Assembly: GCA_035707845.1 (NCBI GenBank)
Contig: DASSTP010000143.1
Coordinates: forward strand, 1 to 33,556
Direction: 5' to 3'
Length of the DNA stretch: 33,556 bases
Source of the DNA: Gemmatimonadales bacterium
GTDB taxonomy: Bacteria > Gemmatimonadota > Gemmatimonadetes > Gemmatimonadales > GWC2-71-9
Shown: piece after piece, positions 1,134 to 13,386 of the stretch
How the letters are laid out: each line of letters starts with the position of its first letter
Numbering within the stretch: position 1 is the first letter of the stretch
Program-made: the position numbers and the translations under genes
The notes under the pieces: model-generated
What the model was told of the DNA's origin: nothing
The model's input: the letters and a program-made list of their open reading frames with translations, nothing else
Databases searched by the model: none

Positions 1134-4124
1134 ATGTGCTCCCGTCACCTGACGGAGTGCATTGTGGGACGGTTGCCGGAACTGCTCAAGCGTGTTGCGT
1201 CGTCGGCCGATCTGTCGCCGCTCACGGCGGAATTCGGCGCCCAGCCCTGCTGGGTCGAGATCCCGCCGGCGCCCGGGTGCGCCCGGCTGGCCGTGGCCGG
1301 CCACGCCGCCGATTTCACCTGGCTCGCCGCGGAAGCCGAGGGACCGCCGCCGGTCGCCGTGCGGCGCCTGGCCCGGCGGCTGGCATCCGAGGGGCGCGCG
1401 GCCGGTGTCCTTGGATTCTACCCCGAAGCCCGGCGACTTGCGATTGCCGCCGGGGACCGGCATCTGGTGGTGGCACTGGATCAGCCCGCACCGGTGCACG
1501 TGGCGTGCCTTGCCCGGCTGGCCGACACTCCGGCCGACCTCTGGTACCCCGACCGGGTGCAGGCGGCGCTCTCGGGCAGCGAAGCGGGCGCCGCCTTCTT
1601 CCGCGACTTTCGCCAGGCAGTTGACCGCTTTGCGGCGGCGCTGCCCGGCGGGATGGCTCCGGATGATCGGCGCACGCTGGCGCTGGTGCAGCTCACCCGC
1701 ATGCTCTTCCTCTACTTCGTGGAGAGCAAGGGCTGGCTCGACGGTCATCCCGCCTTCCTGCGCGAGCAGCTCGACCAGTGCCTGGCCCGCGGGCGCAACG
1801 TCCATCGTCACCTCATCCAGCCGCTCTTCTTCGGCGCGCTCAATCGCCCGGCGCGGGCGCGGGCCGATTCCGTAAGAGCCTTCGGCCGCATTCCGTTTCT
1901 CAATGGCGGCCTCTTCGAGCCTCATCCCCTGGAGCAGGCGCACCGGGTGGCGCTGCCCAACGCGGTCTGGCGCGACGCGCTGGACCAGTTGTTCGAGCGC
2001 TACCACTTCACGGTGCACGAGAGCCAGGATGACGCCGCGTCCATAGCCCCCGACATGCTGGGACGGGTGTTCGAGGGAATCATGGCGCCGGACACTCGAA
2101 AGAGTTCCGGCACCTACTACACGCCGGCAGCGCTCGTGCGGCGCCTGGTGGACGCGGGACTGGCCGCGGCGCTCGCGGCGGGGGCGGGCCTGTCGGACGA
2201 GGAGGCATCCGCCCGGCTGGATGCGCGCGACCCCGCGATGATGCGGCGCGCCCTGGCCATGCGAGTGCTCGACCCGGCGTGCGGGTCCGGCGCCTTCCTC
2301 CTCGGCGCTCTCGAACGGCTCGCCGCGCTTCGGTCGCTGGGCGGTGATGCACCCGCGGCGGCACGCCGGGCCGTGCTGGCCCGGAACCTCTACGGCGTCG
2401 ATCTCGATCCGATGGCCGTGCGCCTCGCGGAGCTGCGCCTCTGGCTGGCGGTGGTGGCGGAGGAGCGCGACGTCACGCCGGAGACGGTGCGTCCGCTGCC
2501 GAACCTCGACTGTCTCATCCGCCAGGGCGATGCGCTGCTGGAACCACCGGAGCTCGGCCTGCCGCCTTCGCCACTCGCCTCCCGGCTGCGTGTGGTGCGC
2601 GAGACGCTGGTCCACGCGAGTGGCGACGCCAAGCGCGCGGCCACGCGCGACCTTCGCCGGCTGGAACTGGAGGCCGCCGTGGCCTCGCTCGTCATGGCCG
2701 AACAGCGGGTGACCAGGCGCATTCACGACCTGCTCGACGCCGCACGCGCCCCCGCACTGTTCGAGACGCCGGGCCGGCTGACGCGCGAGCACCGCGCTGA
2801 TCTCCGCCAGCTTCGGCGCGAGCTGCACCGGCTGCGTGGCAGCCGGCGGCGCGCGGTGCGCGAGGGGCAGCTGCCCTGGTTCAGCTTTGCCAGCCAGTTT
2901 GCCGATGTGATCGCCGATGGCGGATTTGACCTGGTGATCGGCAATCCGCCATGGGTGCGCGCCGAGACGCTGGCCCCGGCGCGGCGTGCAATGCTGATCC
3001 GGCGCTATCGGTCATGGCGAGGAGGAGGGACGGCAGGTTACCGGCACCAGCCCGACCTGGCGGTTGCCTTCCTGGAGCGCGCCATCGAGCTGAGCGCTCC
3101 GGCAGGGGCGCTGGCGCTGGTGCTTCCCTCCAAGGTGGCGACCGCCGGCTACGGTTGGGGGATACGCGGGCTGCTCACCGACCGCGCGACCGTTCACGCC
3201 GTGGTGCCGCTCGACCGGGCGGAAGAGGCACGCTTCGCGGCCACGGTGTATCCCATGGCGCTGATCGCGACACGCCGCCAGCCGCCGCCGGGACGGCTGG
3301 TGCGCTCCACACTCGAGCCCGCGCCAGGCGGCACCCCGCTTTCGTTCTACGGCGAGGGCCCGTGGATCATGCGTGGGGGGCGCGCTCCCGCCGTGGTCGA
3401 GGCGCTGGCCACCTCGCATCCGCTCTTCGGCCAGGTCTATCGCTGCCGGCTCGGCGTCAAGACCGGCGCCGACCGCGTCTTCATCGATCCCACCGACGTG
3501 GAAGCACCGCTGTTGCGGCCGCTCCTGCGTGGGCGCGATGTGCGCGCCTTCCACGCGTCGCCGCAGCACACGCTGCTCTGGACCTGTGACGACGATGGCG
3601 TACCACTTACCGACCTGCCGCCGCGCGCCTCGGAGTGGATTGCGTCGCATCGGCGCCAGCTGCTTGCCCGGCGAGACTACCAGGATGGTCCGGCCTGGCA
3701 GCTGTTCCGGACCCGTGGGGCCACCGAACGCTTTCGCGTCGTGTGGCCGGACCTCTCGCGCCAGCTGGTGGCGGCCCCCCTGCTTGGCCCGCTCCGTCGC
3801 GCCATTCCCCTCAACAGTTGCTATGTCGGCAGCATGCCGGATCGGGATGAGCTCCTGGCCGTCACCGGCTGGCTCAACGCGCCCCTGGTCCGCGCCATTG
3901 CCCGCGCCGGCACCACGGAAGCATCGGGCGGCTTTCGCCGGTTCAATGCGACGGTCGTTGGCCGGATTCCGTTTCCCCTCGCGGCCCGCGCGCACCCGGC
4001 ACTGGTGGAGCTGGCGACTGCCGCCGTTCGGGGCGCACCATCGTATCCCGATCTCGACGCCATCGTTGCCGACCTGCTTGGGGTGGATCACCGCGATCGG
4101 CGAGCGTTGCATGCACTGGCCTGA
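1134..4124 (+). CDS. N6-adenine DNA methyltransferase, Eco57I/PglX-like gamma class with TaqI_C-like specificity domain (996 aa)
   Basis: ORF track 1134..4124. It has the SAM motif [15 protein letters not shown] and the catalytic [11 protein letters not shown] (NPPW codons 2943-2954). The MmeI/PglX-type helical region is present ([43 protein letters not shown]). The tail is TaqI_C-like ([23 protein letters not shown]). An in-frame GTG at 1164 is an alternative start. Confidence 0.85.
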
Positions 4125-6333
4125 CCCGGCGCCGCTGATCGTGGCGGAGTCACTGCGGCTTGCCGCCGAGCCGCCGGTGCCGGCGCAGGACCTGTCGCCC
4201 GCGTCATCGGCAACCGTGGCGGCATCGCTAGCGCGACTTGCATGTCCACGCATGGCACCCGACGTCCCACCGCCCTGGCTGCGGCCGGCGCAGGTGGAGC
4301 CGTGGCGCAGGGTGGTGAGCGCGGTACGCGGATTTCGCGGCGCACTGCTGGCGGAGCCGCCAGGCACCGGCAAGACCTGGATCGCGCTTGCCGCGGCGCT
4401 GGCCCTCACGCGGCGGCCCGTCGCCTGCCTGGTGCCGGCGGTGGTCCAGGCGCAGTGGCGCGTCGTGGCCGCGCGCATCGGCGTACCCTTGTCGATTGGC
4501 ACGCACGAGCAGGCGAGTCGCGGCCGGCTTCCATCCTGTCACGAACTGGTGATCGTGGATGAGAGCCACCATTACCGGAACGCGGCCATCAAGCGCTATG
4601 CGCATGTGGCGCGCTGGATGGCCGGTCGGCAGTCGATCCTGCTGTCGGGAACGCCGGTGGTCAATCGGCTGGACGACCTGCTCCACCAGCTCGCACTCGC
4701 CATCCGGGATGATGCGCTCGCACTTCATGGCCTGCCGTCGCTCCGCGCGCTGGGCCAGCGGCCGGAGTTTCCCGAAGCGATGACACGTATCGTGATCCGC
4801 TCGCCGGCACCCAGCGCCCTGCCCAGGCAGCGGTCTCGAACGGTGCATTTCCGCCTGGGGCTGCGCGTGAGCCATGTGCTTCGTGCCATTCGCGCGCTTG
4901 ACATCAGCCCTGACCGGGGTGTGCGGACCCTGGTGCGGGGCGTGCTCATGCGGGCAGCGGCGTCCAGTCCGGCCGCACTCGCTGGTGCACTGAGGCGCTA
5001 TGGCTTCCTGCTCGCCAATCACGCCGACGCGGTGCGGTCGGGGTGCGCGGTGAGTCGCGACGACCTGCGGCGATGGGCCGGCGCCGGAGGCGAGCAGACG
5101 GTGATGTGGGCCATCGTGCGCGACGGCAGTGAGGGCGCCCAGCTCTGTCCCGATGACGCCGTGCGGGTCCGCGCGCTGCTCGCACTGCTGGCCGACATCA
5201 CGCCCGCCGACGATCCCAAGGCGGCCCTCCTCGCCAACCTGCTGGCTGACGGACGGCGAACCCTGGTCTTCACCTGCTCACGCGAGTCGGTGGCCTGGCT
5301 TCGCCGCGCACTCGGCTATCACCGCACCGCATGGTGCACCGGCGAGGGCGCCGGCATCGGCATGGCGCGCTGGCCTCGTGACGAGGTGCTGCGACTGTTC
5401 GGACCCGATGCAAGGGAGCAGGCACCTGCCATCCTTGTCAGCACCGACATCGCCGCCGAAGGGCTCGACCTGCAGCGCGCCGAACGCGTCGTCCACTATG
5501 ACCTGCCCTGGACGCCAGCTCGGCTGGCGCAGCGGGTGGGCCGGGCAGCGCGCCTCGGTGCGGCCGTGGCCGAGGTGGAGGTGGTGCGATTCGATCCGCC
5601 TCGCATGATCGAGCGAGCCATCCATTCGGTGCGCATCCTGAAGGAAAAGGCGGAGTTGCCACAGCGCGCCCGGCTGGTAAACGTCGGGCTGGGCGGATGG
5701 CCCCCGGTCGTAGCCAACGCCGGCGCCGCTGCGGCCTCTCGCGGTGGCATTGCCGTGATCGCTGACACCACGCGCCAAGGCGTCCTGGCCGGTCTCGAGA
5801 TCACCGGCTTCGACGAGCAGGGCCGCCTGGTATCGGGTGGACGATTGCTCTGGGTAGATGCCCAGGGGTGGAGCGACCGACTCGCCGACCTCACCGGTCC
5901 GCTGGTCGAAGCGCTCGCAGCCGATGGCGAACCACCGCCGGGCGAGCGCATCCGGCGCATGGCGCGTGCAAAGGTGGATGTGGCCGTCAACCAGCTTCTC
6001 AGTACGCTCAATGGCAGCATCTGGGAACGGAGCCGGCGGCCGGAACTCGCCGCGCTGATCGAGCGGCTCCGTCACGTGCGGCGCCGGGCAGTGGAGCAGC
6101 GTGACGCGGCGACCGCGGGGCTGGTGTCCGGTGTGCTGCGGCTGGCCGCCTCCGGCCGCACGGCGGGTGAAACCCTCCTGCTCAAGGAACTCACCCGTAC
6201 GTCGGGTCGCTCCGCGCTCCGGGCCATGGCGCTCCTCCCCCGCGCCCGGCCGGTCCAGCGGTTCGAGGTGCGGGTGGCAGGGGTGGTTGTATTTGAAGAT
6301 GGACAGCTGGACAGGTGGACAGATGGACAGTGA
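4111..6333 (+). CDS. SNF2-family SF2 helicase/translocase (740 aa from ATG 4111)
   Basis: Same frame as ORF 3373..6333, but its first 246 codons overlap the methyltransferase gene. The ATG at 4111 overlaps the MTase TGA (4122-4124) by 14 nt. Motifs: LRPAQ, AEPPGTGKT (GTGKT codons 4363-4377), VIVDESHH (DESH 4558-4569), LLSGTPVVNRLDDL, STDIAAEGLDLQ, DLPWTPARLAQRVGRAARLG. ATG 4252 (MAPDVPPPW) is an alternative start. Confidence 0.8.
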   Translation: MHWPDPAPLIVAESLRLAAEPPVPAQDLSPASSATVAASLARLACPRMAPDVPPPWLRPAQVEPWRRVVSAVRGFRGALLAEPPGTGKTWIALAAALALTRRPVACLVPAVVQAQWRVVAARIGVPLSIGTHEQASRGRLPSCHELVIVDESHHYRNAAIKRYAHVARWMAGRQSILLSGTPVVNRLDDLLHQLALAIRDDALALHGLPSLRALGQRPEFPEAMTRIVIRSPAPSALPRQRSRTVHFRLGLRVSHVLRAIRALDISPDRGVRTLVRGVLMRAAASSPAALAGALRRYGFLLANHADAVRSGCAVSRDDLRRWAGAGGEQTVMWAIVRDGSEGAQLCPDDAVRVRALLALLADITPADDPKAALLANLLADGRRTLVFTCSRESVAWLRRALGYHRTAWCTGEGAGIGMARWPRDEVLRLFGPDAREQAPAILVSTDIAAEGLDLQRAERVVHYDLPWTPARLAQRVGRAARLGAAVAEVEVVRFDPPRMIERAIHSVRILKEKAELPQRARLVNVGLGGWPPVVANAGAAAASRGGIAVIADTTRQGVLAGLEITGFDEQGRLVSGGRLLWVDAQGWSDRLADLTGPLVEALAADGEPPPGERIRRMARAKVDVAVNQLLSTLNGSIWERSRRPELAALIERLRHVRRRAVEQRDAATAGLVSGVLRLAASGRTAGETLLLKELTRTSGRSALRAMALLPRARPVQRFEVRVAGVVVFEDGQLDRWTDGQ

Positions 6334-6464
6334 TGGTCGCAGGTCGCAGGTCACAAGTCGCGCGTGCTCGACCGCTGACGACCACTGTCCAACTGTCCAA
6401 CTGTCCAACTGTCCAACTGTCCAACTGTCCAACTGTCCACCTGTCCACCTGTCCATCCGTCCGT
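6301..6464. repeat. Opposed arrays of tandem octamers: GGACAGNT x4 (6301-6330) facing CTGTCCNN x9 (6385-6456, plus degenerate CCGTCCGT), with GGTCGCA-type heptamers (6335-6362) between them
   Basis: Read directly. The left arm is GGACAGCT GGACAGGT GGACAGAT GGACAG. The right arm is 6x CTGTCCAA, 2x CTGTCCAC and 1x CTGTCCAT. GGACAG is the reverse complement of CTGTCC. The inner segment is GGTCGCA GGTCGCA GGTCACA AGTCGCG. The helicase stop TGA (6331-6333) sits between the arrays. Confidence 0.9.
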
Positions 6465-6478
6465 CTATATTTGCTGCC

Positions 6479-7147
6479 ATGCCCCAGCTCACCACGGTGC
6501 TGTTCGACCTCGACGGCACCATCATCGATTCGGTCGGCCTCATCATTGACAGCTATCACCACACGTTGCGCATGCACGGCCTGCCGGCGCGCACTGATGA
6601 GGAGTGGCTGGCGGGGATCGGCACGCCGCTCCGGGTGCAGTTCGCCGAGTGGGCGGAGCAGCCCGGCATCGAGGCGATGATCGCGACCTACCGGGACTAC
6701 AACCTGACCCATCACGACAGCCGGGTCCTGGCCTATCCCGGCGTCGCCGACATGGTGCGCGGCATCCGGGCCATGGGCCTCCGGACCGGCCTCGTCACCA
6801 GCAAGAACCGCTCGGGCGCCGAGCGCGGGCTGCGGGTGGCCGGGCTCGAGGGAACCATGGAAGTGATCATCGGCGCGGATGACGTGGAGAACCCCAAGCC
6901 CCATCCCGAGCCGGTGTTCCGGGCGCTGGACCATCTGGGCGTCAGCGCCGGGGAGTCCATCTACGTGGGCGACAGCGTGCACGACATGCAGGCGGGACGT
7001 GCAGCCGGCGTCCGGACGGCGGCGGTGCTCTGGGGCCCGTTCGCGCGGCCCCACCTGGAGCCCGCCCTGCCCGATCACTGGCTCGAGCGGCCCGACCAGC
7101 TGCTCCAGCTGGCGCGCACCCTCGCACCCACCGCCCTCGCCAACTGA
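6479..7147 (+). CDS. HAD-superfamily hydrolase (phosphoglycolate phosphatase / PpaX-like), 222 aa
   Basis: Internal ATG 6479 of ORF 6101..7147; upstream of it the frame only translates the octamer repeats. HAD motifs: VLFDLDGTIIDS (motif I), LVTSK (II), YVGDSVHDMQAGRAAG (III/IV). Confidence 0.85.
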   Translation: MPQLTTVLFDLDGTIIDSVGLIIDSYHHTLRMHGLPARTDEEWLAGIGTPLRVQFAEWAEQPGIEAMIATYRDYNLTHHDSRVLAYPGVADMVRGIRAMGLRTGLVTSKNRSGAERGLRVAGLEGTMEVIIGADDVENPKPHPEPVFRALDHLGVSAGESIYVGDSVHDMQAGRAAGVRTAAVLWGPFARPHLEPALPDHWLERPDQLLQLARTLAPTALAN

Positions 7148-8866: not shown

Positions 8867-9601
8867 ATGAGCAAGGTTCCGGCTGCCACCCTGCTCTTCT
8901 GGGTCATCAAGATTGCGGCGACCACGCTGGGTGAGACCGGCGGCGATGCCGTCTCCATGTCCATGGGGCTTGGCTATCTCGCCGCGACCGGCATCTTCGC
9001 CGTCATCTTCCTCGCCGCGGTGAGCGCCCAGATCGCCGCGCAGCGCTTCCGGCCCTTCCTCTACTGGCTCACCATCATTGCCACGACGACGGTCGGCACG
9101 ACCCTCGCTGACTTTGCCGATCGTTCGCTCGGCATCGGATACGCCGGCGGCTCCTCGCTGCTGCTGGTCCTGCTGCTCGCGTCACTGGCGACCTGGTACT
9201 TCACCATGGGGTCGGTGTCGATCGAGACGGTGCGCTCTCCCCGCACCGAAATGTTCTATTGGGTCACCATCATGTTCTCCCAGACACTCGGCACCGCCCT
9301 CGGCGACTGGGTGGCCGACTCCGCCGGAATGGGATACGGTGGGGCCGCCGTGCTGTTCGGCGGCCTGCTGCTGGTCGTGGCCGCGGGGTACGCGTGGACC
9401 AGGGCCTCACGCACCCTGCTTTTCTGGGCCGCGTTTGTGCTGACCCGGCCACTCGGCGCTGTGGTGGGTGACTTCCTCGACAAGCCCCTCACCCAGGGCG
9501 GAATGGCGCTGAGCCGTTACTCGGCGTCGGCCGTGCTGCTGGGGTTCATCATCATGATGCTGGTCCTCTTTCCCTCGAAGCCGGCGGAGGCGGGACACTA
9601 G
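8867..9601 (+). CDS. Conserved polytopic membrane protein (COG4705-like), 244 aa
   Basis: Internal ATG 8867 of ORF 8489..9601. The sequence KVPAATLLFWVIKIAATTLGETGGD ... TTTVGTTLADFADRSLGIGY ... FSQTLGTALGDW ... LTRPLGAVVGDFLDKP shows an internal repeat of TLG(E/D)-type helices that I recognise from this uncharacterised family. Confidence 0.7.
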   Translation: MSKVPAATLLFWVIKIAATTLGETGGDAVSMSMGLGYLAATGIFAVIFLAAVSAQIAAQRFRPFLYWLTIIATTTVGTTLADFADRSLGIGYAGGSSLLLVLLLASLATWYFTMGSVSIETVRSPRTEMFYWVTIMFSQTLGTALGDWVADSAGMGYGGAAVLFGGLLLVVAAGYAWTRASRTLLFWAAFVLTRPLGAVVGDFLDKPLTQGGMALSRYSASAVLLGFIIMMLVLFPSKPAEAGH

Positions 9602-9605
9602 GAGA

Positions 9606-9633
9606 GGTCACGGGTCGCGGGTCGCGGGTCACG
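9606..9633. repeat. Tandem heptamers GGTCACG GGTCGCG GGTCGCG GGTCACG
   Basis: Read directly. The array starts 5 nt after the TAG stop (9599-9601) of the membrane protein gene. The same GGTCRCR unit occurs at 6335-6362, 2 nt after the helicase stop. Confidence 0.9.
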
Positions 9634-9648
9634 AAGCTCGCCTGACGC

Positions 9649-9688
9649 GTCATTGCGAGGAGAGCCCGAAGGGCTCGACGAAGCAATC
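9649..9688. repeat. Imperfect palindromic element GTCATTGCGAGGAGAGCCC-GAA-GGGCTCGACGAAGCAATC
   Basis: The inner stem GAGCCC/GGGCTC has a GAA loop, and the outer ATTGC/GCAAT arms are separated by an internal loop. The CATTGCGAGG...CGAAGCAATC arms resemble a small palindromic repeat I have seen in many unrelated bacterial genomes. I cannot name it. Confidence 0.55.
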
Positions 9689-9689
9689 G

Positions 9690-9766
9690 GCTCACAGCTC
9701 ACGGCTCACAGCTCACAGCTCACAGCTCTCGGCTCACAGCTCACAGCTCACAGCTCACAGCTTTCG
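9690..9766. repeat. Tandem heptamer array, 11 units of GCTCACA (variants GCTCACG, GCTCTCG, GCTTTCG)
   Basis: Read directly, with perfect 7-nt phasing from 9690 to 9766. It ends 4 nt before the stop (9771-9773) of the minus-strand alcohol dehydrogenase gene. Confidence 0.9.
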
Positions 9767-9770
9767 GCCT

Positions 9771-10823
9771 TCAGCGCCCCTTCAACGACGCCATGTCGAT
9801 CACGAAGCGGTACTTCACGTCACTCTTCAGCATCCGCTCCCAGGCCGTGTTGATCTCATCCATCCGGATGACCTCGATCTTTGCGGTGATGCCATGCTTC
9901 CCGCAGAAGTCGAGCATCTCCTGGGTTTCCTGAATCCCACCGATCAGCGATCCGGCGATGGACTTGCGATGGAAGATCAGGTCCATGGCTGAGTGGGGCG
10001 GATGCGGCGTTGGCGGCACGCCCACGAGGCACAGCGCACCGTCGCGCTTGAGCGCCGAGAGGAGCGGATCGAGCTGGTGTTGCGCCGCGACGGTGTCGAG
10101 GATGAAGTCGAACGTTCCTTCCGCGCGCTTCATCTCGGCCGCATCGGTCGAGACCACCGTGTGGGCGGCGCCGAGTTTCATGGCGTCAGCGCGCTTGGCC
10201 GGCGACGTGGTGAACACCGTCACCTCGGCGCCCATCGCGGCCGCCAGCTGCACCGCCATGTGCCCGAGCCCGCCCAGCCCGACGACGGCCACGTTGGCGC
10301 CGGGCCCGACGTGCCAGTGGCGGAGGGGCGAGTACGTCGTGATGCCGGCGCACAGCAGCGGCGCTGCCGCCGCAGGGTCAAGATTTTCGGGGATGGAGAG
10401 CACAAAGTCGTCGGTGACCACGATATTGGTCGAGTAGCCGCCTGCGGTGGTGCCGCCCATCACCGGGTCAGGCGAACCATAGGTCATGGTGAACCCGCCG
10501 GTGCAGTAATTCTCGAGGTGGTCCCGGCAACTCGAACAGGTGCGGCAGGAGTCCACCAGGCAGCCCACACCCACCAGTTGCCCGGGCTTGAATCGCCTGA
10601 CGTCAGCGCCAACCGCCGTGACCCGGCCGACGATCTCGTGACCCGGAATTACGGGATAGGTGGCAGGGAACCACTCGCTCCGGGCGAAGTGCAGGTCGGA
10701 GTGGCAGACGCCACAGAAAAGAATGTCGATCGCGACGTCGTGTGGGCCTGGCGTGCGGCGTTCGATGGTGGTGCTCCGGAGCGGTGACGTGGGGTCGAAT
10801 GCGGCGTAGGCGGCGGTTGCCAT
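9771..10823 (-). CDS. Zn-dependent NAD(P) alcohol dehydrogenase (cinnamyl-ADH / YahK-like), 350 aa
   Basis: ORF 9771..10823. It has the catalytic Zn motif CGVCHSDLH...GHEIVGRV, a structural-Zn Cys cluster (CRTCSSCRDHLENYC) and the Rossmann motif VVGLGGLGH. Confidence 0.9.
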   Translation of the reverse strand: MATAAYAAFDPTSPLRSTTIERRTPGPHDVAIDILFCGVCHSDLHFARSEWFPATYPVIPGHEIVGRVTAVGADVRRFKPGQLVGVGCLVDSCRTCSSCRDHLENYCTGGFTMTYGSPDPVMGGTTAGGYSTNIVVTDDFVLSIPENLDPAAAAPLLCAGITTYSPLRHWHVGPGANVAVVGLGGLGHMAVQLAAAMGAEVTVFTTSPAKRADAMKLGAAHTVVSTDAAEMKRAEGTFDFILDTVAAQHQLDPLLSALKRDGALCLVGVPPTPHPPHSAMDLIFHRKSIAGSLIGGIQETQEMLDFCGKHGITAKIEVIRMDEINTAWERMLKSDVKYRFVIDMASLKGR

Positions 10824-11703: not shown

Positions 11704-13386
11704 ATGCCCTCACGCCGAGACTTTCTCCAGACTACCGCCGTGTCCGCGCTGGGCATGTCCCTGCCGCCGGGGACACTTGTCGCACAGGAACGCTCGCACA
11801 ACCGGAGCGGTCGGGCGGACACCTTCCTGGATATTCGCCGCACACCCGACCGGGTCAGCGCCCAGCTCGCGAATGATCGCCGGCAGCTCCGCCGGACCGG
11901 CAGCGACCGTTGGGAGAATGCCGGTGTCACGGTCATCACCAGCGCTGCGGATACCGCGCTTGCGGTCAAGGTCGCTGCACCGTCCACCGCCGTCGAGTGG
12001 ATCCACCTTCGGTGGGACGGGCAGCTCGACGGGCTCCAGCTCATCCTTGGCGATGCCTGGGAGCGAGGCTACGGCGACCTCGAATGGCGCGGCTTCGTGC
12101 CCGACCGGGTCATGCCGTGGTACGTGGCCGCATTCGATGGGGAGGTGACCCATGCGTGGGGCGTGCGCACCGGCGCCAGGGCATTCTGCTACTGGCAGCT
12201 GGATCCGCAGGGGATCACGTTGTCGGCGGATGTCCGGAGCGGTGGCACTGGTCTGGAGCTCGGCTCGCGCACCCTGGACGTCTGTCAGGTGACCTGCCGC
12301 GCCGGCAAGCCGGATGAAGCATCGTTCGCCGCGGTGCATGCCTTCTGCGGGATAATGTGCCCCAACCCTCGGCTCGTTTCCCAGCCTGTGTACGGCAGCA
12401 ACGACTGGTACTGGGCTTATGGGAAGAACAGCACCGCCACGGTGCTCGCTGACGCCGGGCACATCGTGGAACTCTCGCCGGACAGCGCCAACCGTCCCTT
12501 CGTCGTGATCGACGACGGCTGGCAGCCCGAACGCAGCGCCAGGGGCGGCAACGTCGGCCTCTGGGATCGTGGAAACGAAAAATTTTCCGACCTTCCCGGC
12601 CTCGCGTCGAGAATCCGCGAGACAGGCGCGCAGCCCGGCATCTGGATCCGGCCACTGCTTGCACCGGATGACACGCCGCGGAGCTGGCGGTTGCCACGCG
12701 ACCAGAAGATCCTTGACCCAACGATCCCCGACGTGCGCCAGAAAGTGGCCGCCGACATTGCCCGGCTCCGTCAGTGGGGTTTCGGGCTGATCAAGCACGA
12801 CTATTCGACGGTGGACATCCTGGGGCGCTGGGGTTTCGAAATGGGGTCGGAACTCACCAGCGATGGATGGACATTCGCCAGCGGCCCCGGCCGAACCACC
12901 GCCGAGGTCATCAACGAATTCTACGGAACAATCCGGCACGCGGCGGACGATGGGATCATCCTCGGCTGCAACACGGTGAGTCATCTCTCGGCGGGGCAGT
13001 TTGAACTGTGCCGAGCCGGCGACGACACCAGCGGCACCGACTGGTCTCGAACCCGCAAGATGGGGGTCAACACGCTGGCCTTCCGGGGGCCCCAGCATGC
13101 CGCGTTTTATGGCGTGGATCCGGACTGCGTGGGCGTCACCAACCAGATTCCCTGGCCGCTGAACCGCCAATGGCTCGATCTGGCCGCCAGGAGCGGGACG
13201 ATGCTCTTTGTTTCACTTGCGCCGGACGCGCTGGGCGAGGCACAACGACGGGACCTCCGCTCCGCACTCGCGATCGCCGCGGAGCCGCAGCCATTAGGTG
13301 AGCCACTGGACTGGCAGCACACGACCTGGCCCACGCGCTGGCGCCTGATGGACGACACGCGGGTGTACGATTGGATTCCTGACTAG
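11704..13386 (+). CDS. Tat-exported glycoside hydrolase, alpha-galactosidase-like (clan GH-D flavour)
   Basis: ORF 11704..13386. The twin-arginine signal is MPSRRDFLQTTAVSALG. The VIDDGWQ and LIKHDYS segments resemble the DDGW and nucleophile K-x-D motifs of GH27/GH36-type enzymes. Family assignment is tentative. Confidence 0.6.
   Translation: MPSRRDFLQTTAVSALGMSLPPGTLVAQERSHNRSGRADTFLDIRRTPDRVSAQLANDRRQLRRTGSDRWENAGVTVITSAADTALAVKVAAPSTAVEWIHLRWDGQLDGLQLILGDAWERGYGDLEWRGFVPDRVMPWYVAAFDGEVTHAWGVRTGARAFCYWQLDPQGITLSADVRSGGTGLELGSRTLDVCQVTCRAGKPDEASFAAVHAFCGIMCPNPRLVSQPVYGSNDWYWAYGKNSTATVLADAGHIVELSPDSANRPFVVIDDGWQPERSARGGNVGLWDRGNEKFSDLPGLASRIRETGAQPGIWIRPLLAPDDTPRSWRLPRDQKILDPTIPDVRQKVAADIARLRQWGFGLIKHDYSTVDILGRWGFEMGSELTSDGWTFASGPGRTTAEVINEFYGTIRHAADDGIILGCNTVSHLSAGQFELCRAGDDTSGTDWSRTRKMGVNTLAFRGPQHAAFYGVDPDCVGVTNQIPWPLNRQWLDLAARSGTMLFVSLAPDALGEAQRRDLRSALAIAAEPQPLGEPLDWQHTTWPTRWRLMDDTRVYDWIPD

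What the first reader, a model, noticed from the sequence alone, without database searches (positions are those of the whole stretch)
6301..6464. Opposed octamer arrays straddling the helicase stop codon
Seen:
- GGACAGNT x4 (6301-6330) encodes the last residues GQLDRWTDGQ of the helicase.
- After the TGA come GGTCGCA-type heptamers (6335-6362).
- Then come nine CTGTCCNN octamers (6385-6456), ending 22 nt before the HAD start codon.
- The arms are complementary at the GGACAG/CTGTCC core, but unequal in copy number (4 versus 9) and mismatched at the NN positions, so many slipped registers are possible.

This is the only 8-nt-period member of the repeat family in the window. It marks the right border of the methylase-helicase module.

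Inference: it may be a terminator or insulator between the module and the HAD gene. It could also be a hypervariable microsatellite that changes the helicase C-terminus by unit gain or loss. One octamer shifts the frame by 2, so the stop position would change.
Basis: seen in the sequence. Interest (0 to 1): 0.5.

Follow-up and report, generated by a model that had tools for sequence, protein, structure and literature searches.

The report
Microsatellite-armed hairpin between two genes
The opposed 8-base repeat arrays are real. They are one copy of a genome-wide class of fast-changing hairpin repeats that fill the gaps after genes in this Gemmatimonadales bacterium. The class is related to poorly understood repeats known from Xanthomonas and Geobacter, and it probably marks gene ends, but its function is unproven.

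Summary
Four GGACAGNT units (6301-6330) encode the last ten helicase residues. GGTCGCA heptamers follow the TGA stop. Nine CTGTCCNN units (6385-6456) run up to a TATATT box 7 nt before the HAD ATG.

It is not a locus-specific device. The 2.84-Mb genome, a Gemmatimonadales MAG, holds about 1,650 arrays of period 6-10. They make up 2.2% of the genome and 19% of the intergenic DNA. There are 271 opposed pairs, and 86 loci use this same octamer.

- **Position:** arrays start at stop codons.
- **Polarity:** the 5' arm is purine-rich in 260 of 271 pairs.
- **Gene ends:** frequency follows the number of gene 3' ends: convergent gaps 95%, tandem 57%, divergent 14%.
- **Relatives:** five species of the genus keep a hairpin at this boundary, but with other units, loops and copy numbers. 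The helicase tail changes from 0 to 24 extra residues.
- **Families:** loops are specific to each unit family, and whole hairpin interiors are swapped at orthologous sites.

Best reading: a hairpin element with microsatellite arms that probably acts as a terminator or insulator without a U-tract. The function is inferred, not shown.

The closest published relatives are the Xanthomonas GGGAATC repeats and the Geobacter paired octamer repeats. This scan has noted the same class before in at least 58 other genomes.

The parts
4252..6333 (+). SNF2/Helicase_C protein gene. The start is uncertain: the longest ORF begins at 3373, and my own gene caller starts it at 4252. The last 10 codons are repeat units.
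   Evidence: Pfam Helicase_C, ResIII and SNF2-rel_dom; DrmD-like in PADLOC; C-terminal translation.
6297..6330 (+). 5' arm: 4.2 purine-rich octamers (GGACAGNT). They are translated as ...DGQLDRWTDGQ.
   Evidence: TRF; sequence; paired with the 3'-most octamers in the predicted fold.
6331..6333 (+). TGA stop codon of the helicase, directly after the last 5'-arm unit.
6335..6383 (+). Nested inner hairpin. It consists of GGTCGCA-type heptamers x4 (6335-6362) and their imperfect complement (6363-6383).
   Evidence: TRF; inner pairing in the - strand fold; similar nested blocks sit in other octamer hairpins, in C22, C165 and C274.
6384..6456 (+). 3' arm: nine pyrimidine-rich octamers (CTGTCCAA x6, CTGTCCAC x2, CTGTCCAT x1).
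   Evidence: TRF gives 9.0 copies at 98% matches; pattern search found 0 matches in 100 shuffles.
6457..6465 (+). Degenerate outer units, CCGTCCGTC. They are of the CCGTCC type used by the orthologous hairpins of relatives G006, G004 and G001.
   Evidence: Sequence; orthologous loci.
6466..6471 (+). -10-like box TATATT, 7 nt before the ATG. This is a candidate promoter for a leaderless HAD mRNA. As UAUAUUU it is also the U-rich stretch right after the stem.
   Evidence: The box is conserved as TATATT, TATTTT or TACGTT, 5-7 nt before the ATG, in eight relatives. Across the genome, 79 C-rich arrays are followed by the same arrangement, against 14 in the control orientation.
6479..7147 (+). HAD-family hydrolase gene.
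   Evidence: Pfam HAD_2, E 2.7e-48; orthologs in 31 of 31 relatives.

Best explanation
The locus is one copy of a lineage-specific, genome-wide class of hairpin elements whose two arms are tandem arrays of 7-9-nt units.

**Anatomy (shown).**
- A purine- and G-rich array begins at, or here just inside, the stop codon of the upstream gene.
- Its pyrimidine-rich complement ends at the -10 box of the next gene.
- A second hairpin, built from heptamers, is nested in the loop.
- Repeats fill the whole 145-nt spacer.

**Dynamics (shown by comparison, mechanism inferred).**
- Arms gain and lose units, most simply by slipped-strand mispairing.
- The two arms stay complementary while their sequence changes.
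- Loops flip orientation between species.
- Whole interiors (arms plus loop) are exchanged for those of another unit family at the same site.
- These points suggest recombination or template switching between the arms, and copying between loci.

**Function (inferred).**
- In the transcript the element folds into a very stable stem directly after the helicase stop.
- It would act as a 3'-end stem-loop without a U-tract. That would end or insulate helicase transcription and protect the 3' end.
- The HAD gene would then be expressed from its own promoter at the foot of the stem.
- The constant polarity fits a stem that must pull a weakly hybridised pyrimidine-rich RNA out of the RNA:DNA hybrid. 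This last point is my inference from general nucleic-acid thermodynamics.

The translated tail of the helicase is a by-product.
For: **Class membership**
- There are 1,656 arrays of period 6-10 with at least 3 copies. They cover 2.2% of the genome and 19% of intergenic bases.
- 86 loci carry the same octamer. 41 are ordered purine-arm then pyrimidine-arm, and none has the opposite order.
- There are 271 opposed pairs. The 5' arm is purine-rich in 260 of them, and G exceeds C in 246 against 8.

**Link to gene 3' ends**
- G-rich arrays start a median of 0 nt from the stop codon, interquartile range -3 to +2.
- In length-matched gaps of 80-149 nt, arrays occur in 95% of convergent, 57% of tandem and 14% of divergent gaps. 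Opposed pairs occur in 59%, 22% and 5%.
- -10 boxes placed as for leaderless mRNAs are four times commoner after tandem gaps with arrays: 13% against 3%.

**Stability**
- RNA folds of -87 and -97 kcal/mol, z -5.6 and -7.2.

**Structure kept while sequence is replaced**
- At this boundary G006 and G004 use GGACGGCT, G001 uses GACGGTTA and GACGGCTG, and G009 and G002 use GGGAAGRC.
- G008, G007 and G003 have no array there.
- Five other window spacers behave the same way.

**Element-like behaviour**
- Loops are specific to a unit family.
- One arm-loop junction occurs 11 times in G000, 29 in G005, 7, 6, 5 and 2 times in four other relatives, and 0 in four more. The control pattern gave 0 in all but one of the 31 genomes, where it matched once.
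- Of 15 orthologous sites compared between G005 and G000, 7 keep the family, 2 of them with the loop inverted. Eight carry the GGACAGNT family instead, with the flanks conserved up to the boundary.
Against:
- The class has no canonical U-tract. Only 3 of 99 tails contain TTTT and 19 of 99 have at least 5 T in 12 nt.
- The simple terminator scan flags nothing here.
- Arrays also occur in 14-51% of divergent gaps, where no terminator is needed.
- About two thirds of arrays have no recognisable complementary partner.
- Enrichment at 3' ends could equally reflect where insertions are tolerated.
- Gene starts and stops come from my own simple gene caller, so distances to start codons are approximate.
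- Copy numbers come from a short-read MAG whose contigs often break at arrays.
Confidence: 0.55

Rival explanations
1. Neutral or selfish DNA. The arrays are slippage-prone microsatellites, or self-spreading hairpin elements, with no function for the cell. They accumulate just after stop codons and before -10 boxes because those are the only places where they do no harm. The hairpin form and its polarity come from how they are generated, not from selection.
For: - Units, loops and copy numbers turn over quickly between congeners.
- Some relatives have no array at the same boundary and only a short spacer (L006-L008).
- Several genera of the same family have almost no arrays.
- Copy number of one family ranges from 0 to 29 between species.
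- Arrays spill into coding ends and give arbitrary protein tails.
- The authors of the Xanthomonas study found no clear function either (PMC4692102).
Against: - The graded dependence on the number of 3' ends at equal gap length is stronger than simple tolerance predicts. Divergent gaps are the longest, yet they are the poorest in arrays.
- A hairpin persists at the same boundary through complete sequence replacement.
- Where arrays are missing, relatives often carry a plain palindrome at the same place (G001 and G002).
Confidence: 0.3
2. A structure or binding site at the DNA level. The arrays would act as cruciforms, G-quadruplexes or i-motifs, or as arrays of sites for a nucleoid protein. 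This was proposed for the Xanthomonas and Nostoc repeats (G4) and for the Geobacter paired repeats (IHF/HU). They would shape supercoiling or promoter activity of the HAD gene.
For: - The pyrimidine arm abuts the -10 box and occupies the -35 region.
- Several abundant units in this genome carry GGGG runs, for example GGGGCGT and GGGGCAT.
- Published analogues were read this way (PMC4692102, PMC2700814).
Against: - GGACAGNT and GGTCGCA have no G-runs of 3 or more, so they are poor G4 formers.
- More than 100 heptamer, 45 octamer and 48 nonamer units cannot all be sites for one protein.
- The octamers give no good -35 match: by my own inspection, 3 of 6 positions at any spacing of 16-19 nt.
- Enrichment is at 3' ends rather than at promoters.
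Confidence: 0.1
3. A contingency (phase-variation) locus. Gain or loss of one octamer would reversibly switch the helicase C-terminus, or HAD expression, within a population.
For: - The unit length is not a multiple of 3.
- The 5' arm is translated.
- The tail and the stop position differ between species.
Against: - Only residues after the conserved ...VVVF are affected, and two species have essentially no tail.
- The same architecture occurs at hundreds of unrelated genes, which argues against a gene-specific switch.
- Arrays lie upstream of the -10 box, not between -10 and -35 at a spacing-critical position.
Confidence: 0.05

Closest known systems
Intergenic G-rich heptamer repeats of Xanthomonas (GGGAATC) and Nostoc (GGGGAYT), Rehm et al. 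2015, PLoS One (PMC4692102)
   Same: - Tandem 7-nt units, mostly about 4 copies, with about 185 arrays per genome.
- The G-rich strand is the sense strand within 50 bp of, or overlapping, the stop codon, and the antisense strand upstream of genes.
- They are rare between divergent genes.
- There are 70-75 convergent inverted pairs able to form stem-loops.
- Length and sequence vary strongly between close species.
- All of these rules recur here.
   Different: - One unit family there; here more than 100 heptamer, 45 octamer and 48 nonamer units.
- The density here is about nine times higher (1,656 arrays).
- The unit at this locus is 8 nt and cannot form a good G-quadruplex.
- Loops are family-specific, hairpins are nested, and hairpin interiors are swapped at orthologous sites. 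I did not see these points in the passages of that paper that I searched.
Paired tandem-repeat sites of Geobacter metallireducens, classes 1-3 (Aklujkar et al. 2009, PMC2700814)
   Same: [quoted passage not shown]
- They are mostly found as pairs on opposite strands at a variable distance, with the outer units poorly conserved.
- This matches the paired, outward-decaying octamer arms seen here.
   Different: - There they were read as IHF/HU binding sites, with about 16-48 sequences per class.
- Here there are many more families and copies.
- Here they are anchored at stop codons and linked to 3' ends.
REP/BIME elements and REPINs of proteobacteria, mobilised by RAYT (Y1) transposases (from my own knowledge of the field)
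   Same: - Multicopy extragenic palindromes concentrated after gene 3' ends.
- Roles in stabilising 3' ends or in termination.
- Families that differ in copy number between relatives.
- RTAG...CTAY at about 22% of hairpin boundaries recalls the GTAG of REPs.
- The genome encodes a RAYT-like protein and 15 classical GTAGGGGC...GCCCCTAC palindromes.
   Different: - The arms here are tandem microsatellites of variable length, not a fixed 20-40-nt palindrome.
- The RAYT-like gene is not flanked by arrays.
- The GTAG signature is absent at most boundaries, including the left one of this locus.
Canonical intrinsic (Rho-independent) terminators
   Same: - A stable G+C-rich stem directly after a gene.
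- At this locus a U-rich UAUAUUU follows the stem.
   Different: - The stems are far longer, with large or nested loops.
- The class as a whole lacks a U-tract.

Membership tests
Bacterial intergenic 7-9-nt tandem repeats of the Xanthomonas/Nostoc/Geobacter type | Tandem units of 7-9 nt, typically about 4 or more copies, multicopy in the genome | tested here: met
   Period 8 x4.2 and x9, and period 7 x3.9, at the locus. Genome-wide there are 859, 311 and 134 arrays of period 7, 8 and 9.
Bacterial intergenic 7-9-nt tandem repeats of the Xanthomonas/Nostoc/Geobacter type | G-rich strand is the sense strand at or overlapping the stop codon; C-rich strand is the sense strand upstream of genes | tested here: met
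   The locus follows this rule. Genome-wide, 505 stop-adjacent arrays are G-rich against 185 C-rich, and 338 start-adjacent arrays are C-rich against 97 G-rich.
Bacterial intergenic 7-9-nt tandem repeats of the Xanthomonas/Nostoc/Geobacter type | Under-represented between divergent genes; inverted (convergent) pairs common | tested here: met
   In gaps of 80-149 nt, arrays occur in 14% of divergent, 57% of tandem and 95% of convergent gaps. There are 271 opposed pairs.
Bacterial intergenic 7-9-nt tandem repeats of the Xanthomonas/Nostoc/Geobacter type | Length and sequence vary between close relatives at the same gene boundary | tested here: met
   Six species at this boundary, and five further window spacers.
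G-quadruplex-forming repeats (the reading of Rehm et al.) | At least four runs of GGG or longer with short loops | tested here: not met
   GGACAGNT and GGTCGCA carry only GG. Other families in the genome do carry GGGG.
Canonical intrinsic terminator | G+C-rich stem with a short loop, followed by a U-tract | tested here: inconclusive
   The stem is very stable. TATATTT follows it, giving 5 T in 8 nt. However, the loop is large and nested, the consensus scan finds nothing, and class-wide only 3 of 99 tails have TTTT.
Canonical intrinsic terminator | Transcript 3' ends map to the base of the stem | not testable with these tools
REP/REPIN (RAYT-mobilised) | Conserved GTAG at the 5' foot of the palindrome | tested here: not met
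   There is no TAG at the left boundary of this locus (GAAGATGGACAG). Class-wide, NTAG occurs at 29% of boundaries and RTAG at 22%.
REP/REPIN (RAYT-mobilised) | A RAYT gene flanked by copies of the element | tested here: not met
   A RAYT-like gene lies at C274:4202-4759. Its flanks hold no arrays, only a GTAGGGGC-type palindrome.
Phase-variable contingency locus | Repeat-number change switches a gene on or off within a population | not testable with these tools
   Only between-species differences were seen. Only the non-conserved tail is affected.

The most novel reading that the evidence does not exclude
The hairpins may be a previously undescribed kind of non-autonomous mobile element. In this reading each one is a REPIN-like hairpin whose arms are microsatellites and whose loop is the family signature. 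It would spread between loci, home into existing hairpins (their loops, or TAG/CTA feet at stop codons), and replace the resident element. That would explain the nested hairpins, the family-specific loops, the copy-number bursts (0 to 29 per genome) and the complete replacement of interiors at conserved sites. The resident RAYT-like transposase, or another enzyme acting on single-stranded DNA, might drive the spread.
Probability: 0.2. Interest if true: 0.7.

Novelty: new variant of a known kind. Interest (0 to 1): 0.45.

Why it matters
- **Scale.** About a fifth of the intergenic DNA of this genome, and nearly every mid-sized convergent gap, consists of these arrays. They shape how genes end and start in a whole bacterial order.
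- **Practical effects.** They break short-read assemblies, and they add arbitrary tails to proteins, which misleads annotation.
- **If the hairpins terminate transcription.** They would be a lineage-specific terminator without a U-tract, whose sequence is free to drift as long as polarity and pairing are kept. That would be a useful natural test of what a terminator needs.
- **If the hairpins spread and replace one another.** They would link microsatellites and mobile palindromes, two repeat classes usually treated apart.
- **For this locus itself.** The finding is ordinary within that class. It is not a special device of the methylase-helicase pair.

Tried and rejected
1. **Rfam on 6150-6600.** Only sub-threshold look-alikes of microRNA hairpins appeared, at 17-24 bits against cut-offs of 71-100. 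No known RNA family matches.
2. **Consensus promoter and terminator scan of 5800-7000.** Nothing was found at the locus.
3. **A canonical U-tract behind the hairpins.** Absent in the class.
4. **A -35 hexamer supplied by the octamers.** At most 3 of 6 matches at any spacing (my own inspection), so rejected.
5. **RAYT link.** The genome has one apparently intact and one truncated Y1-transposase-like gene. Their flanks carry GTAGGGGC-type palindromes, not arrays.
6. **Mobile-island border.** Rejected, because the helicase-HAD synteny extends to other genera.
7. **G-quadruplex reading.** Rejected for this unit, which has no GGG.
9. **Literature.** No paper in the searchable library links Gemmatimonadota with such repeats.
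10. **My first attempt to see a leaderless signal at all predicted starts.** The signal was only weak, about 10% of starts, probably because my start prediction is crude. The array-anchored test was clearer.
Full report
**1. The observation**

Tandem Repeats Finder reports three arrays:
- 6297-6330: period 8, 4.2 copies.
- 6335-6361: period 7, GGTCGCA, 3.9 copies.
- 6384-6455: period 8, 9.0 copies, 98% matches.

Three CTGTCC cores spaced by 8 nt occur 10 times in the window, all at this locus. The same pattern gave 0 matches in 100 dinucleotide-preserving shuffles.

The 5' arm is translated. The frame ends ...VRVAGVVVFEDGQLDRWTDGQ*. The upstream protein carries Helicase_C and SNF2 domains, and the downstream ORF at 6479-7147 is a HAD_2 hydrolase.

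As RNA the region folds at -87.4 kcal/mol on the + strand (z -5.6) and -96.7 kcal/mol on the - strand (z -7.2). No shuffle folded as well. In the fold, the four 5' units pair with the 3'-most octamers. The other octamers and the heptamer block lie in the loop, where the heptamers form a nested hairpin.

After the last full octamer come the degenerate units CCGTCCGTC (6457-6465). Directly after them is TATATT (6466-6471), then 7 nt, then the ATG. Repeats therefore fill the whole spacer between the stop codon and the -10-like box.

**2. The locus is one of many**

The window is contig C143 of a 2.84-Mb assembly with 315 contigs and 67.5% G+C. Contigs of MAGs titled 'Gemmatimonadales bacterium' align to it over nearly their whole length at 81-93% identity. 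The genome is therefore a Gemmatimonadales MAG.

Repeat census:
- TRF finds 859, 311 and 134 arrays of period 7, 8 and 9 with at least 3.5 copies.
- After merging overlaps there are 1,656 arrays of period 6-10 with at least 3 copies. They cover 2.2% of the genome and 19% of all intergenic bases.
- The octamer of this locus occurs at 86 loci. In 41 of them a GGACAG array is followed by a CTGTCC array. The opposite order never occurs.
- GGTCGCA is the commonest heptamer, with 118 arrays.

**3. Rules of the class**

I called genes with a simple codon-usage model of my own. It gave 2,642 genes and 91.5% coding, and it reproduces the Pfam-supported genes of the window. Its start codons are approximate.

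*Polarity.*
- Of 271 opposed pairs, the 5' arm is purine-rich in 260. G exceeds C in 246 pairs, against 8 with the reverse.
- Unpaired arrays follow the same rule relative to the nearest gene. After stops, 505 are G-rich on the sense strand against 185 C-rich. Before starts, 338 are C-rich against 97 G-rich.

*Anchoring.*
- G-rich arrays begin a median of 0 nt from the stop codon, interquartile range -3 to +2. C-rich arrays most often end about 14 nt before the start codon.
- 79 C-rich arrays are followed at once by TANNNT (mostly TATCTT), then 5-6 nt, then ATG and a coding ORF. The control orientation gave 14. The HAD gene is one of these candidate leaderless genes.

*Dependence on 3' ends.* In gaps of 80-149 nt:

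| Gap type | With an array | With an opposed pair |
|---|---|---|
| Convergent | 95% | 59% |
| Tandem | 57% | 22% |
| Divergent | 14% | 5% |

*Other regularities.*
- Tandem gaps with arrays are followed four times more often by a -10 box in the leaderless position: 13% against 3%.
- There is no canonical U-tract. Tails are 65% pyrimidine, but only 3 of 99 contain TTTT.
- Genes whose stop abuts an array use TAG in 54% of cases, against 17% elsewhere.
- TAG (mirrored as CTA) is enriched at hairpin boundaries even on start-facing sides: 25% there and 37% on stop-facing sides, against a background of 6%. The form is mostly RTAG.

**4. Relatives**

HAD orthologs exist in all 31 related genomes searched. 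The helicase C-terminal part precedes HAD in all ten relatives inspected, at 36-85% identity. This boundary is therefore old, not the edge of a mobile module.

A hairpin built of arrays sits at this boundary in six species of the genus, counting the window itself:

| Genome | Unit at this boundary | Helicase tail after ...VVVF |
|---|---|---|
| G000 (window) | GGACAGNT, 4 and 9 units, with nested heptamers | EDG plus 9 residues |
| G002 | GGGAAGRC, 4 and 4 units, with the family's typical loop | GHGKAG* |
| G006 | GGACGGCT | GDG* |
| G004 | GGACGGCT | GDG plus 8 residues |
| G001 | GACGGTTA and GACGGCTG | GDG* |
| G009 | GGGAAGRC, with a GTAGGGGC-type palindrome nested in the loop | GDG plus 24 residues |

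G008, G007 and G003 have no array there, only a short spacer and TACGTT before the ATG. The remnant CCGTCC units at the outer edge of the window's 3' arm match the unit type of G006, G004 and G001.

At five other spacers of the window the same holds. Hairpins persist, units and copy numbers differ, and sometimes a plain palindrome takes the place of the arrays.

Array density differs across the order:
- G000 has about 30 period-7 and 11 period-8 arrays per 100 kb.
- Congeners have 8-15 period-7 arrays per 100 kb.
- Five other genera of the family had no period-7 array and few arrays of period 8-9 in the 20-40 kb sampled from each.
- Two other families have intermediate densities.

**5. Element-like behaviour**

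- Loops go with the unit family. Nine of 13 GGGAAGAC-family hairpins share a 16-nt loop (TCTGGAGGAATGAAYA) in either orientation, although their flanks are unrelated.
- The GGACAG family has a few recurrent loops: an ATGCAT type, a CTTGCCAGCGAAG type, and nested heptamers like those in the window.
- One arm-loop junction of 18 nt occurs 11 times in G000, 29 in G005, 7 in G004, 6 in G002, 5 in G009, 2 in G006, and 0 in G001, G003, G007 and G008. The control pattern gave 0 in 30 of the 31 genomes and a single match in G022.
- I compared 15 orthologous sites between G005 and G000. Seven keep the family, two of them with the loop inverted. Eight carry a GGACAGNT hairpin with a different loop. Flanks are conserved right up to the boundary.

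Slippage alone explains the changes in copy number. It does not explain family-specific loops or the replacement of whole interiors. Those need copying between loci: ectopic conversion, or insertion into resident hairpins followed by decay of the outer arms. Nested hairpins such as the one in the window fit the second route. Loop inversion fits recombination or template switching between the arms, which would also keep the arms complementary. These mechanisms are inferred.

A RAYT-like Y1 transposase gene (C274:4202-4759) and 15 GTAGGGGC...GCCCCTAC palindromes exist in the genome. The arrays do not flank that gene.

**6. Function**

The best-supported reading is a 3'-end stem-loop that separates transcription units. 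It rests on four points:
- the dependence on the number of 3' ends;
- the anchoring at stop codons;
- the persistence of a stem through sequence replacement;
- the own promoters of downstream genes.

The constant polarity could reflect the weaker RNA:DNA hybrid of a pyrimidine-rich 3' arm. This is my inference from general knowledge. At this locus UAUAUUU follows the stem.

The main rival is that these are neutral or selfish repeats that survive where they do least harm.

**7. What is known**

- Rehm et al. 2015 (PMC4692102) describe the same positional rules, inverted pairs and between-species variation for GGGAATC repeats in Xanthomonas and GGGGAYT repeats in Nostoc. They found no clear function.
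- Aklujkar et al. 2009 (PMC2700814) list paired tandem octanucleotide and heptanucleotide sites in Geobacter metallireducens.
- I found no paper on such repeats in Gemmatimonadota.
- Earlier reports of this scan describe the same class in at least 58 other genomes, mostly Gemmatimonadales, and class it as a variant of the Xanthomonas type. I agree.

**8. Verdict**

The locus is an ordinary member of a striking, lineage-specific variant of a known but unexplained repeat class.

Noticed in passing
G000 contig C274:4202-4759 and C192:10579-10992; palindromes listed: A RAYT-like (IS200-type Y1) transposase gene that looks intact, and a truncated second copy. There are also 15 classical REP-like palindromes, GTAGGGGC...GCCCCTAC. 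One overlaps the truncated gene, and a relative of them sits nested in the loop of the G009 hairpin at the HAD boundary (L005).
   Followed up: partly
Genome-wide; window examples 9599-9601 and 13384-13386: Genes whose stop codon abuts an array use TAG in 54% of cases, against 17% elsewhere. TAG/CTA is also enriched at hairpin feet that face gene starts, where CTA runs into the -10 box (CTATCTT). It is unclear whether the TAG belongs to the element, is its target, or is a decayed unit.
   Followed up: partly
Loci L019, L025, L027, L033, L012, L014, L050: Long unpaired arrays of the same octamer (GGACAGGT or CTGTCCAC) occur in MAGs of Bacteroidales, Clostridia, Actinomycetota and Chloroflexia, several per genome in some Bacteroidales bins. 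Either this unit recurs independently or it is shared across phyla.
   Followed up: no
G000 C113:631-826, C163:7141-7394, C204:8844-9033, C277:3048-3244, C283:1783-2074, C10:1275-1503: A second palindromic element (GTCACCCTGAGCG...CGCTCAGGGTGAC, 16 half-sites in the genome) is repeatedly nested in the loops of octamer hairpins.
   Followed up: no
window 1134-4124 and 4252-6333: The Eco57I/MmeI-type N6 methylase and the SNF2 helicase resemble DISARM DrmMI and DrmD, and type IIG enzymes, in PADLOC. The helicase keeps its place next to HAD across the genus and beyond, so the pair looks like a long-resident gene pair rather than a recent island.
   Followed up: partly
G000 contig ends, e.g. C147:1-137, C308:7-92, C202:4366-4419; G002:C131: Many contigs begin or end inside arrays. 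The repeats break the short-read assembly, and copy numbers of long arrays may be unreliable.
   Followed up: no
window 9606-9766: In the convergent gap 9601-9771 the two arrays (GGTCRCG and GCTCACA) are not complementary. Each is nevertheless G-rich on the sense strand of the gene it follows. The polarity rule therefore holds even without a hairpin. G001 has only 3 units where the window has 10.
   Followed up: partly
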